64,000 nucleotides of DNA from an uncultured delta proteobacterium (GTDB lineage Bacteria; Desulfobacterota; WTBG01), in NCBI GenBank assembly GCA_963793865.1, contig CAWCBP010000011.1, positions 117,652 to 181,651 on the forward strand. The letters run 5' to 3'. The stretch's first letter is position 1; each line of letters opens with the position of its first letter. Shown piece after piece: positions 47,719 to 50,700 of the stretch. The position numbers were made by a program.

Positions 47719-50700
47719 CGTGTCCGCAGTTCGATTCTGCGCCTCGGCACCATACTAATCAAGGGGTTAGAGCCGCCGGAGAGGCGCTTTAACCTCTTTT
47801 ATTATGCTCAGGATACCGGTGTTGTGCCCGGTCATGAAAGGAGAAGCAACACGGTTGCTGCCGTACCCATAACATCATTTTCTCATCCCCGTTCCGCGAA
47901 TTTTGGCAAACTCCCGCCGTCTTGACACCTCCCGATAATTGTGATATTTCGTCATCCTGTAAGCAGATCTCAAAGGACGGAATTAATAAGGTCATGGTCA
48001 TAAATATCCCCTCTGACGGAAAACGGTACGATTCTTTTTACTGCAGGAGCCTCGTGCATGCTGTGAACGTTTTTGCCCTGCTGCTGGGAGTCATTGTGCT
48101 GCTTTCTGCCGCTGAGCAGGTCAGCGCTGAAGAGAGTGACAGGGAAGTGCTCAAGGGGCTTCAGGGCATCGGCATTAAGATTGACAGGCTCTCCCGCAAA
48201 GCGAGAGCACTGGGCATTACCTATGAGAGTGTAACCATAAATATTGTATCAAAACTGCGGCAGGCCGGGATCAAAGTTGTGAGCAGCGATGTTTTGCAGA
48301 AGGACCCGTCCCTGTCCTTTTTGAAAATCAGTTTGATGCTTGATTACAATGAACCCAGGTATAAATATACCGTCGTGGTTGGCCTCAATGAGAGGGTTTA
48401 TTTTGAAAAGGATCCGCAAATAATTTCTTATGCAATGCCATGGTGGAGAATAGTAAAAGGAGAGGATGTCGGAGATGGCGATGTTGCCAAACATGTGCTG
48501 GAAACGCTGCAGTATATAATTAATGAGTTTATTGCCAACTATAACGAGGTCAATCCTAAGGAAAATAGGCCGGAAATGAAAATGGACGAGCAGCAAGATG
48601 GTACCCGACTTGACGATAGACAAGATTTGATGAAAAATAATCTACAAGAAATAAAATAAAAATAATTCACTTTTCATTAAAAATAGTGTATTATTGATAC
48701 AATAAAATATTCAATTATATGTGAAATGCTTTAGCGATGGTTGAAAAAAGCCTTAACATCAAAACCGGTAGTGGAATCCGCGAAGTTATTCTGAAAGAAG
48801 GAGGCTGGTAATGTCTGTGTATATCCCGAAAAAGCTTTTCTCAGTACTGGCGGTGACCGTGTTTTGCTTGATCCTGTCTCAGCCCTCCTGGGGTCAGTGA
48901 GGGACGTGCACAACAACGACATCGGTCGGATGTTACAGCGATGTTACCCCGGAAGCCGCAAAGGCCATGATTGACTCCAATCCCGGGCTGATTGTGGTGG
49001 ATGTAAGGGAGTTAACCGAGTACTGCAGCGAGACGGCAACTCCGCCCGGTCACATACCAGGTGCTCGCAATTATCCCTGGAACTCGGAAGTGTTGCAGGA
49101 TCGCTATGAAGAACTTCCCATCAATGGTGATATCCTGGTTTACTGCGGGATGAGCATCCGCAGTCCCCAGGCTGCAGCTTTTCTCTGCACCCATGGCTTT
49201 ACCTCTGTCTATAATATGAACCCCGGCTTGACTTCCTGGCCGTATGAGACGGTCGGCTGTGTTGACACAGACGGTGACGGCATCAATGATGACCTGGATC
49301 ATTGCACGGATACTGACAATGATGGCTTTGGTGACCCGGGATTTGCCCTGAACACCTGCTATCTGGACAATTGTCCTGATACGCCCAACTCAAATCAAGC
49401 TGATGCTGATGGCGACTGTATCGGGGACGTGTGTGATCCCGAACCGGCTGTGTATGATCCCTTAACCGTTGACTCCTATCCTCCGGGCGGCAATAACTGC
49501 GGGGATCTCTGTGAGTGCGAGGGCAACTTCGATGGTGACAATGATGTGGATGGGACTGACGCCTCCGCCTTCAAGGCTGATTTCGGCCGGAACACAATTA
49601 TAGACCCCTGCACTAATGAGTCACCCTGCAATGGTGACTTTGAGTGCGATAAGGATGTGGATGGGAATAATGCGTCACGATTCAAGGGGGATTTCGGAAG
49701 AAACGCATACCAGAAGCCCTGCCCGGATTGCTTAACCGACCCCTGTGTCTATCCATAATGGATGCTGTGGTGATGAAAAAGCCTCTCAGACAAATCCTGA
49801 GAGGCTTTTTTCTGCCTTGTTTCTTCCCGATGGTCATCTTTAATCGGCTTCGCGCACAATCGTGCCGAAAGATCCGATTAAGGTAAGGCCAAGGTTGATT
49901 TTTACATTCTGGGTGTTGTAATCATTGGTGGTGTAGCGCTGTAAAAACGGAAACCAGTAGTCACGTTTCCACCCGTCCCTAGGCACGACCACTACCGGAA
50001 GCGAAAAGGGGAGAAGCACCACCTGTTCCCCGGCGTCGGATGGCACCGTGATGATTTCTATCATACCGGCGGTGGCTATCTGCACATTGTGCTCTTCCGC
50101 CACATAAAGGCCGTCAAAGTTGAGGTCGGCTGTGCCGCCCGAGCCGGTAAGGCTGAAAAAGCTGAAGTCCGTGTTGCCGATATTGGAAACGGCAAGATTC
50201 ATGGCCCGGCCGTTTATGATGAACTGCTCAACGGGCCTGGTCGTCGGGGCGTCAAAGTCAAGCTCAAACGTTCCCTTGATAAGCTTCAGATTGCACCGGG
50301 TGAGAGGCAGCCCCCCAAGGTTCAGGTCAGCGGCGGTGTTGCTGCACACGATGCTGAGAGCGGTTGCCACATCGTAGTTTCCGATGCTTATATCCCACTC
50401 CTCAAGGTTGGTATTTGTATACGGCAGGACTCTCACGCCCGATCTGAACTCGGCAATGAACGTGCTGCCCGAGCTTTCGGTGAAGAGCTTGGGTTCTTTT
50501 AATTCCCTCCGGCCGGTATTGTAGGTAATGGCGGCCCGCACAATGATATCGTCGTCATTTATTCTGCGGATGACCATCCGGGTTCCGGATAGCGCAAAGG
50601 AGAGCGAAAACCCGGTTTTCCCGAGGATGTTGTTTTTGGTAATTTCAAGCGTCTGGGTCGCGCCGATCGCGGTCGTCGCCAGGGGAAAACTGAAAATAGA

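What a model noticed while it worked through the whole genome (the two positions that open the first line are those of the whole stretch)
48811..49758. Secreted rhodanese with selenocysteine at the mature N-terminus (signal peptide-GQ-U-x0-2-C-polyThr)
g03232 and g03233 form one 315-aa exported protein: signal peptide, then Sec as about the first or second mature residue with a Cys 1-3 positions later, a Thr linker, a rhodanese domain and the dockerin-like module. Sec lies on a flexible arm outside the rhodanese active site, unlike the five listed rhodanese selenoprotein forms.
Evidence so far: TGA at the same place in all 3 other genomes of the genus at 60-77% identity; a family member and the four paralogues here lack the arm. 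Hairpin GACATCG-GTN-CGATGT in 4 of 4. Rhodanese domain 46-144; below the cut of the rhodanese selenoprotein model NF041203, 24 against 115 bits. Listed forms 1-5 have UxxS, UxxG, CxU or UxxxxU motifs.
(Added by a program. Inside this text positions count along the whole contig: contig position 117,652 is position 1 of the stretch shown here. "Call 12" and the like, gene names such as g00115 and contig names such as C1 are that model's own, and its searches are not shown. The text may have been shortened before it was handed on; [...] marks where a part breaks off. The agent that wrote the report below was given it as the finding of a first reader that could run no searches.)

Follow-up and report, generated by a model that had tools for sequence, protein, structure and literature searches.

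The report
Secreted rhodanese with inserted selenocysteine arm
A sediment bacterium appears to read through a stop codon to put the rare amino acid selenocysteine on a short inserted arm at the tip of an exported sulfur-transfer enzyme, away from its active site, which suggests that selenoproteins can arise by insertion rather than by swapping an existing cysteine.

Summary
Confirmed in substance. Window 48811-49758 (+) is one 315-codon frame: signal peptide, Q, TGA (codon 30), Cys, Thr run, rhodanese domain with an intact active-site Cys112, dockerin-like tail. The TGA sits at the same place in 4 of 4 genomes of the genus and is absent from the other 38 of 42 class genomes. A hairpin 23-26 nt downstream fits the bacterial SECIS model and has the GGUC-type loop of this genome's fdhA genes. 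DNA of the arm is conserved more than that of the enzyme domain (85% against 60% with the most distant relative). tRNA-Sec, selB and selD are present; selA carries a 1-nt shift here but is whole in the three relatives. New here: short relatives read signal-Q-C-Y, so U, the Cys, the Thr spacer and most of the SECIS form an 11-12-codon insertion; no Cys-for-Sec arm was found among 313 proteins. In forms 3 and 5 Sec lies in the active-site loop; here it does not. One detail was wrong: the window's hairpin is ACATC-GGTCG-GATGT. Best mechanism (inferred): a tethered selenol/thiol pair that strips the persulfide from Cys112. Sec about 85%; this mechanism about 45%. No direct evidence of selenium.

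The parts
48799..48804 (+). Ribosome-binding site AGGAGG, 6 nt before the ATG
   Evidence: sequence; purine-rich sites before the start in all 11 TGA-bearing sequences
48811..48894 (+). Sec-pathway type signal peptide, codons 1-28, predicted cleavage S-W-G|Q
   Evidence: basic N-end, hydropathy peak 2.5-3.4, small-x-G end in 11 of 11; paralogues A-W-G|H; cleavage is inferred
48898..48900 (+). In-frame TGA, proposed selenocysteine U30, residue +2 of the mature chain
   Evidence: unchanged in an RNA-library contig and a DNA contig that cover it
48898..48930 (+). 11-codon insertion (U-G-T-C-T-T-T-T-S-V-G): U-x(0-2)-C pair, Thr spacer, 5' arm and loop of the SECIS
   Evidence: gap of 11 columns against signal-Q-C-Y relatives P0253, P0251, P0152; Cys 1-3 residues after U in 11 of 11, U-to-S distance 8-9
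48918..48934 (+). SECIS-like hairpin, GACATC-GGTCG-GATGTT; loop starts 23 nt after the TGA
   Evidence: model in PMC13188914
48931..48933 (+). Cys41; its codon TGT is the 3' arm of the hairpin; probable structural disulfide with Cys126
   Evidence: co-occurrence in homologues; pairing inferred, one exception (G040)
48946..49239 (+). Single rhodanese domain (residues 46-143)
   Evidence: PF00581 E 1.1e-13; model matches 3gk5 Z 15.1 rmsd 1.3 over 97 and GlpE 1gn0 Z 14.7 rmsd 2.2 over 104
49144..49161 (+). Active-site loop C112-G-M-S-I-R (six residues, Cys kept)
   Evidence: C112 and R117 invariant in A1; general loop CRSG/AxR in PMC10925157
49186..49188 (+). Cys126 (F-L-C; armless relatives have F-L-D)
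49261..49476 (+). Acidic Cys-rich linker of thrombospondin-type-3-like repeats
   Evidence: TSP_3 in 65 of 93 homologues, not in the window protein itself; pLDDT under 50
49477..49758 (+). Dockerin-like tail and TAA stop
   Evidence: hhalign 99% to the tail of P0024; Dockerin_1 in 7 of 13 tails at E up to 1, not the window's; 10 of 11 PDB hits are cellulosomal chains at E 0.1-0.63
49775..49811 (.). Strong hairpin with A/T-rich flanks, likely two-way terminator
   Evidence: -22.4 kcal/mol; not listed by the consensus scan

Best explanation
The gene encodes one exported selenoprotein. SelB reads the GGUC-type hairpin and inserts Sec at codon 30 (strongly indicated, not shown; about 85%). Signal peptidase leaves Q-U-G-T-C-T-T-T-T at the N-terminus (inferred). 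Cys41-Cys126 staples the base of the arm to the domain and the tip is mobile (inferred from co-occurrence and the model). Cys112 takes a sulfane sulfur from thiosulfate or polysulfide as a persulfide (established rhodanese chemistry, untested here). The U30/C33 pair acts as a built-in dithiol: Sec attacks the persulfide, Cys33 resolves it to a selenenylsulfide, releasing sulfide or passing sulfur on and keeping Cys112 active outside the cytoplasm; an outside reductant resets the arm (inferred, the weakest step). The dockerin-like tail, shared with dozens of this genome's secreted proteins, holds it at the surface (inferred). The Thr run is both tether and the unpaired spacer that keeps the SECIS loop 23-26 nt from the UGA.
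For: TGA at the same place in 4 of 4 genus genomes found by protein search. Arm DNA 84-86% identical to all three relatives while the rhodanese is 86, 73, 60% and the signal peptide 57, 49, 37%. Hairpin meets loop, stem, G and spacing rules; same loop type as three fdhA genes of G000. tRNA-Sec, selB, Sec-containing selD; selA whole in G001-G003. Indels in the arm are multiples of three. Cys within 1-3 residues of U in 11 of 11 although no search asked for it. Active-site Cys kept. Rhodaneses hand persulfide to dithiols, giving sulfide and a disulfide, and thiols reactivate periplasmic PspE (PMC2593051 passages); GlpE, TSTD1, RhdA work with thioredoxin (PMC10925157 passage). 25 of 33 database homologues with Cys126 are called from the internal Met against 2 of 232 without it, as expected if a TGA hides their leader.
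Against: No selenium, peptide or activity data. No Cys-for-Sec arm among 313 proteins, the usual test for a new selenoprotein. The stem shows no two-sided change and does not beat shuffles (453 of 500); the first fold of the window region is unremarkable (z 0.39); G003's constrained fold is -5.6 kcal/mol, short of the -7.5 rule. selA of G000 is split by a 1-nt gap. U-to-C spacing varies (1, 2 or 3), odd for a fixed redox centre. P0006 has an S/T arm with neither U nor C, and G000 keeps four armless paralogues, so the arm is dispensable for the family. Reach of the arm to Cys112 could not be measured (no model coordinates). Kin are not independent: about five lineages.
Confidence: 0.45

Rival explanations
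1. Sec is inserted, but the U-x(0-2)-C tip is a soft-metal or metalloid binding site (Hg, As, Cu and the like) or an exposed redox bait that works apart from the rhodanese site, possibly capturing metal next to a sulfide source.
For: Floating U-to-C spacing suits coordination better than a fixed ring. The review lists CU and UxC metal-related selenoproteins and says about 70% of predicted Sec-ligand contacts involve metals (PMC13188914). A role of periplasmic rhodanese sulfide in metal precipitation was considered for PspE (outcome not read).
Against: No metal-resistance or transport gene nearby: neighbours are a stomatin/NfeD-type pair, a LolB-like and TPR protein, and other secreted proteins. 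Only one U and one C are free; no His.
Confidence: 0.2
2. Sec is inserted mainly as a translational gate: with the UGA right behind the signal peptide, export of this rhodanese depends on selenium, while armless paralogues are made regardless. The residue itself does little chemistry.
For: The arm's length is fixed at 8-9 codons by SECIS spacing and much of its sequence is RNA-constrained. Four armless paralogues in G000. P0006 keeps the arm without U.
Against: A Cys follows U in 11 of 11 although its place moves, which points to selection on the pair. I know of no such gate in a secreted bacterial enzyme (recalled, not searched as such).
Confidence: 0.15
3. TGA is a true stop: the upstream 29 codons are a leader or dead remnant and the enzyme starts at Met53 (48967), as gene callers have it; the hairpin is regulatory or incidental.
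For: TGA is the commonest stop in G000 (438 of 1087 long frames). Database proteins start at this Met. selA is frameshifted in G000. A purine-rich stretch abuts the internal Met in some.
Against: Met53 lies inside the domain's first helix; residues 42-52 are conserved with armless paralogues and form a strand and helix in the model. A Cys-rich, dockerin-tailed protein needs its signal peptide, and every armless paralogue has one. L057 has no internal Met. A dead gene would not keep the same TGA, frame and active site across 53-77% identity. No TAA or TAG at that codon in the 4 genomes.
Confidence: 0.1
4. Sec is inserted and the arm serves a partner in trans: it shuttles sulfur, selenium or electrons between this enzyme and another surface protein, or catalyses disulfide exchange for the genome's many Cys-rich secreted proteins.
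For: 71 six-frame segments of G000 carry the same disulfide-rich tail, a large folding load; flexible Sec loops exist in SelD (PMC13188914).
Against: No partner gene is conserved next to it: G001 and G003 have other neighbours than G000 and G002. No PF00963 cohesin found in G000.
Confidence: 0.1

Closest known systems
Rhodanese-like selenoprotein form 3 (NF041203, LYCAU)
   Same: Single rhodanese domain behind an N-terminal leader, one UGA, found in the same class (9 of 42 genomes)
   Different: Its Sec is in the active-site loop (Y-C-A-U-P-N); here the loop is C-G-M-S-I-R and U lies 82 residues upstream; 24 bits against cut-off 115; no dockerin-like tail
TsoB, form 5 (NF045694)
   Same: Leader plus rhodanese domain fused to a C-terminal module; Sec-encoding
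   Different: Both Sec residues are in the active-site loop (F-Y-U-A-G-L-x-U-V-R-S); DsbD-like partner; 13 bits against 805
Forms 1, 2, 4 (PF00581; UxxS, UxxG, UxxG)
   Same: Rhodanese fold with one Sec
   Different: Motif here is U-x(0-2)-C; their Sec is taken to replace the catalytic Cys (inferred from the motifs in Table 1 of PMC13188914, sequences not fetched)
Periplasmic single-domain rhodaneses PspE (E. coli) and Sud (Wolinella, 1qxn)
   Same: Exported single rhodanese domain with a catalytic Cys; fold match Z 10.8 (2jtq) and 11.8 (1qxn); dithiol acceptors release sulfide
   Different: No Sec, no tethered arm, no dockerin-like tail
CoADR-RHD / Npsr persulfide reductases; SelD N-terminal Sec loop; thioredoxin-reductase C-terminal Sec arm
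   Same: Works-like analogues: a mobile thiol or selenol arm serving an active site. 3icr and 3nt6 are fold hits for the rhodanese part; the SelD loop is; the CoA swinging arm and the TrxR arm are recalled
   Different: Those arms are a cofactor or belong to flavoproteins and kinases in the cytoplasm; no sequence link
Armless and short-tip exported rhodaneses of the same clade (H-T-D...F-L-D; Q-C-Y...F-L-C: P0248, P0253, P0251, P0152, P0027)
   Same: Direct homologues, 50-62% identical in the domain, same leader position and acidic tails
   Different: They lack the 11-12-codon insertion that brings U, C, the Thr run and the hairpin

Membership tests
Bacterial selenoprotein (UGA recoding) | In-frame UGA conserved in homologues from other organisms | tested here: met
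   4 of 4 genus genomes; 7 of 51 metagenome pattern hits are this gene, but that pattern demanded the TGA
Bacterial selenoprotein (UGA recoding) | SECIS: loop 3-9 nt with G in first two places, stem 4-16 bp, 16-37 nt from UGA | tested here: met
   5-nt GGUNN loop, 5-6-bp stem, 23 or 26 nt in 11 of 11; unselected in the 4 genomes only
Bacterial selenoprotein (UGA recoding) | SECIS free energy at most -7.5 kcal/mol | tested here: inconclusive
   -11.6, -14.2, -14.4, -5.6 with the stem enforced and the best sub-window chosen: 3 of 4
Bacterial selenoprotein (UGA recoding) | Compensatory changes in the stem | tested here: inconclusive
   5 of 6 pairs never vary, one varies on one side (GU 8, AU 1, GC 1); no excess over shuffles
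Bacterial selenoprotein (UGA recoding) | Host has selA, selB, selC, selD | tested here: met
   tRNA-Sec, selB, selD in G000; selA split by 1 nt in G000, whole in G001-G003; selB in G001-G003
Bacterial selenoprotein (UGA recoding) | Cys-containing homologues with Cys aligned to the UGA | tested here: not met
   no C-x(0-2)-C-Thr arm among 313 proteins; short relatives have Cys at +2, but it aligns with Cys41. The review says nearly all, not all, selenoproteins have such homologues
Bacterial selenoprotein (UGA recoding) | Selenium shown in the protein | not testable with these tools
   needs 75Se or mass spectrometry
Rhodanese (PF00581) sulfurtransferase | Rhodanese domain and fold | tested here: met
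   51.9 bits against 22.2; Z 15.1 and 14.7
Rhodanese (PF00581) sulfurtransferase | Catalytic Cys at the head of a six-residue loop | tested here: met
   C112-G-M-S-I-R117, C and R invariant; loop differs from the common CRSG/AxR
Rhodanese (PF00581) sulfurtransferase | Sulfur-transfer activity | not testable with these tools
   needs an assay
Rhodanese selenoprotein form 3 (NF041203) | Score over 115 bits and C-x-U in the active-site loop | tested here: not met
   24.2 bits; relatives 24-33; loop has no U (for comparison)
Rhodanese selenoprotein form 5 (TsoB, NF045694) | Score over 805 bits, UxxxxU loop, DsbD-like domain | tested here: not met
   13.2 bits
Rhodanese selenoprotein forms 1, 2, 4 | UxxS or UxxG motif | tested here: not met
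   UxxC in 8 of 11, UxC in 1, UC in 2 against Table 1; representatives not fetched
Dockerin type I (PF00404) | Duplicated Ca-binding loop-helix motif scoring against PF00404 | tested here: inconclusive
   window tail no hit; 7 of 13 homologous tails hit, best 3.1e-11; PDB hits weak; separate model too poor to search (pLDDT 46.5)
Dockerin type I (PF00404) | Cognate cohesin in the genome | tested here: inconclusive
   PF00963 not found in G000; divergent cohesins not excluded

The most novel reading that the evidence does not exclude
A selenoprotein born by insertion, not by Cys-to-Sec exchange: a 33-36-nt cassette that carries the UGA, a resolving Cys, an unpaired Thr-coding spacer and most of its own SECIS entered between Q(+1) and Cys(+2) of an exported rhodanese, using the old Cys codon as the 3' arm of the hairpin. 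The product is a rhodanese with its own tethered selenol/thiol acceptor at the mature N-terminus, with no Cys orthologue, so Cys/Sec-pair screens cannot see it; up to 25 database proteins called from the internal Met may hide the same arm beyond this genus.
Probability: 0.4. Interest if true: 0.8.

Novelty: new variant of a known kind. Interest (0 to 1): 0.62.

Why it matters
Bacterial selenoproteins are thought to arise mostly by turning a catalytic Cys into Sec, and the main discovery methods need Cys homologues (PMC13188914; deep-Sep says it may miss proteins without them, PMC12013277). This case looks like a different route, and shows how one short insertion can be codon, tether and SECIS at once. 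It also offers a small, testable system for the old question of who accepts sulfur from exported rhodaneses: Sec-arm, short-tip and armless versions of one domain exist side by side. The limit is that it is shown in one uncultured genus and nothing is measured.

Tried and rejected
Wider distribution: no TGA form in the other 38 of 42 class genomes, none new among 401 phylum genomes (9 candidates scored per genome), one armless hit among 401 genomes of another phylum; the species-genome pattern scan gave 3 close loci of 54 (L093-L095), which carry the same proteins as the genus relatives and add no case. 44 of 51 metagenome pattern hits were unrelated. The hairpin pattern in 42 class genomes gave, besides the 4 genes, 16 loci with no convincing recoded frame. 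A general N-terminal Sec arm on other secreted proteins of G000: a scan for leader-TGA-frame gave 7 candidates, only this one convincing by eye; of 71 tail-bearing segments only this one has a leader joined by TGA, by eye. Truncated database calls as proof of TGA: rejected as proof, since truncated P0142 is sister to G040's open, TGA-free form. Another genetic code: rejected, TGA ends 438 of 1087 long frames. Covariation: none. Tail: single-sequence PDB search empty, separate model unusable, whole-model fold lists filled by rhodaneses. Sulfate-reducer context: no dsrA over the cut-off in G000. Expression: one 156-nt contig of an RNA library covers 48852-49007 with no difference at depth 3.4; DNA carry-over not excluded and no silent control laid, so it supports the letters, not transcription. 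DNA upstream of the divergent truncated proteins, the language-model atlas view and earlier scan notes remain unseen. No complex prediction was run, as no binding claim is made.
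Full report
Observation. Read with TGA as Sec, window 48811-49758 (+) gives 315 residues: a 28-residue leader ending S-W-G, then Q-U-G-T-C-T-T-T-T-S-V-G-C-Y-S-D, a rhodanese domain and an acidic Cys-rich tail. By the standard code only a frame from Met53 is listed. Pfam finds Rhodanese at 46-143; NF041203 and TsoB score 24 and 13 bits against cut-offs of 115 and 805.

Is the TGA recoded? A protein search of 41 genomes found the TGA at the same place in G000, G001, G002 and G003; a profile search of all 42 class genomes found it in these 4 only, with 10 of 42 holding any close homologue. A pattern scan of metagenomes that demanded the TGA and the hairpin gave 51 loci, 7 of them this gene; they add variants but no unselected evidence for the TGA, and three are near-copies of the genus relatives. 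In all 11 sequences the leader is 27-28 residues with a hydrophobic core and a small-x-G end, Q precedes U (selected for in 7), a Cys follows U by 1, 2 or 3 residues (selected for in none), and the U-to-Ser distance is 8 or 9. Codons 29-45 are 84-86% identical in DNA to each relative, whereas the rhodanese part is 86, 73 and 60% and the leader 57, 49 and 37%; beyond codon 45 only 5 of 23 conserved fourfold codons are the same in all four genomes, while the Thr37, Ser38 and Cys41 codons of the stem are. The hairpin meets the loop, stem, guanosine and spacing terms of the bacterial SECIS model (PMC13188914, passages); the energy term is met in 3 of 4. Three fdhA genes of G000 have a GGUCU loop about 18 nt after their UGA; ours is GGUCG at 23 nt. 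Against this: the stem barely varies, so covariation says nothing, and the region folds no better than shuffles. G000 has tRNA-Sec, selB and a Sec-type selD. Its selA is split by a one-base gap near codon 54; selA is whole in G001, G002, G003 and G005. Many tail-bearing frames in G000 are also in pieces, which fits assembly indels, but I could not test that. Contigs of 4 public runs laid on 48700-49400 show changes at codon 32 and a three-base insertion in the Thr run; an RNA-library contig and one DNA contig cover the TGA unchanged (51 rows of differences were not shown). I put Sec insertion at about 85%.

What the arm is. Among 265 homologues scoring 80 bits or more, out of 313 proteins fetched, 232 have no Cys at position 126 and typically begin leader-H-T-D. 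Of the 33 with Cys126, 25 are called from the internal Met, against 2 of the 232; one more starts a few residues earlier; the 7 full-length ones all have a Cys at position 41. Cys41-Cys126 is thus probably a structural disulfide; G040's form has Cys126 without Cys41. Several full-length forms read leader-Q-C-Y/R/G, and the alignment shows an 11-column gap where ours has U-G-T-C-T-T-T-T-S-V-G. So U, the partner Cys, the Thr run and the 5' arm and loop of the hairpin are one insertion of 33-36 nt, and the old Cys codon forms the 3' arm. P0006 has a Ser/Thr arm with neither U nor C; it may be a forerunner or a decayed form. A tree of 70 rows (8 of 11 TGA forms, 17 of the 22 truncated forms then known, 5 full Cys126 forms, 40 hand-picked of 165 armless; 98 columns, bootstrap unsettled) puts all Cys126 forms on one side of a branch (94/81) and the TGA forms with 7 truncated ones in a weakly supported group (86/47) with P0006 next to it. 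The tree is unrooted and weak, so the order armless, short tip, arm is a reading, not a result. Truncation does not prove a hidden TGA: P0142 is sister to the open G040 form. No protein with Cys in place of U on such an arm was found.

Structure. The AlphaFold2 model of the mature chain (U as C, 93 rows) has pLDDT under 50 for mature residues 1-6, which hold U30 and C33, a strand at residues 9-11, about 82-98 for the rhodanese and about 86-95 for the tail core. It matches single-domain rhodaneses (Z 15.1 to 3gk5, 14.7 to GlpE). The loop C-G-M-S-I-R keeps the catalytic Cys but departs from the common CRSG/AxR (PMC10925157, passages). The tail is homologous to tails that score as Dockerin_1 and occurs in 71 six-frame segments of G000; no PF00963 cohesin was found. 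Neighbours are not conserved across the genus and give no pathway. The three closest named loci are titled uncultured Thermodesulfobacteriota or delta proteobacterium MAGs; the runs laid are sediment and freshwater metagenomes.

Mechanism. Shown: the frame, the conserved TGA, the hairpin, the domain order, the insertion. Strongly indicated: Sec insertion and export. Inferred: Cys112 forms a persulfide; the mobile U30/C33 pair takes it over as a dithiol would. PspE passes sulfur to dithiothreitol with release of sulfide and is reactivated by thiols (PMC2593051, passages), so a tethered selenol/thiol would be a built-in acceptor in a compartment short of free thiols. I give this 0.45; metal or metalloid binding 0.2; a selenium-dependent translation gate 0.15; action on a partner in trans 0.1; a true stop 0.1.

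Comparison. Table 1 of PMC13188914 (section 7, parts 1 and 2 of 3 read) lists five rhodanese forms: UxxS, UxxG, CxU, UxxG, UxxxxU. Loci fetched with the form 3 and form 5 models show Sec in the active-site loop. PMC1976440 (passages) adds a UxU version of a rhodanese family. This protein is a member of PF00581 and very probably a selenoprotein, but fails the tests for forms 3 and 5 and the motifs of 1, 2 and 4. It works, on my reading, like PspE plus a tethered acceptor.

Novelty and its limits. Nine literature searches showed no description of a rhodanese with Sec at the mature N-terminus. Passages were also seen from PMC1088965, PMC13326102, PMC13510729 (an exported selenoenzyme of sulfur respiration is already known), PMC5877670 and PMC12013277. 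Haft and Tolstoy 2025 was not held, the review has no readable supplement, and BSepDB and Deng et al. 2026 were not seen; candidate lists there could already hold this form. Verdict: new variant of a known kind, interest 0.62.

Noticed in passing
G000:C1:969949-971365 (minus); L082: selA is split by a one-base gap near codon 54 relative to G003; whole in G001-G003 and G005. Assembly error or real lesion is open.
   Followed up: partly
G000, genome-wide; window 56480-57478, 58147-59103, 59122-60762 among them: 71 six-frame segments carry the same Cys-rich dockerin-like tail on very different secreted proteins, several nearly tail-only; no PF00963 cohesin found. L094 and L095 have secreted neighbours that look cohesin-like by eye.
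   Followed up: partly
G000:C6:198840, C10:36968, C10:26225, C8:451170, C9:50422, C10:34417, C1:655958: Other likely selenoproteins with hairpins: three FdhA, SelD, an MvhD-like V-A-G-U-H, a C-S-A-U (HdrA-like) and a T-U-P-H-C glutaredoxin-like protein (family names from motifs, recalled).
   Followed up: partly
L002, L003, L005 against L089-L091: G003 is closest to G000 in selA (90% against about 70% for G001, G002) yet has the most distant Sec-rhodanese and another tail type; G001 joins the CGMSIR loop to that other tail. Suggests paralogy, transfer or domain shuffling.
   Followed up: no
G000:C2:36832-37155 and C6:5946-6269: Two of the four armless paralogues are nearly identical copies on different contigs.
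   Followed up: no
L152 (G040): A Cys126 rhodanese with a different, open 13-residue tip and no Cys41 or TGA.
   Followed up: partly
P0248 and P0293: A full-length Q-C-Y form and a truncated Cys126 form share the same longest-contig length (12806), so they may be neighbours; the truncated one is a candidate second Sec form.
   Followed up: no
window 54484-55652 and 56175-57478: A decarboxylase-beta-like membrane protein (named by eye) and a CAP-domain protein with the dockerin-like tail each appear split over frames.
   Followed up: no
G000, genome-wide: No dsrA over the cut-off in this 98.6% complete genome; 14 rhodanese matches.
   Followed up: no
G091:C23:38466-38939, G402:C26:13491-14006, G425:C53:6958-7428, G356:C208:89-547: Short frames matching only the rhodanese part of the TsoB model with 2-3 TGA: possibly stand-alone multi-Sec rhodaneses.
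   Followed up: no
window 49775-49811: Perfect 15-bp hairpin between this gene and the convergent gene, likely a two-way terminator.
   Followed up: partly
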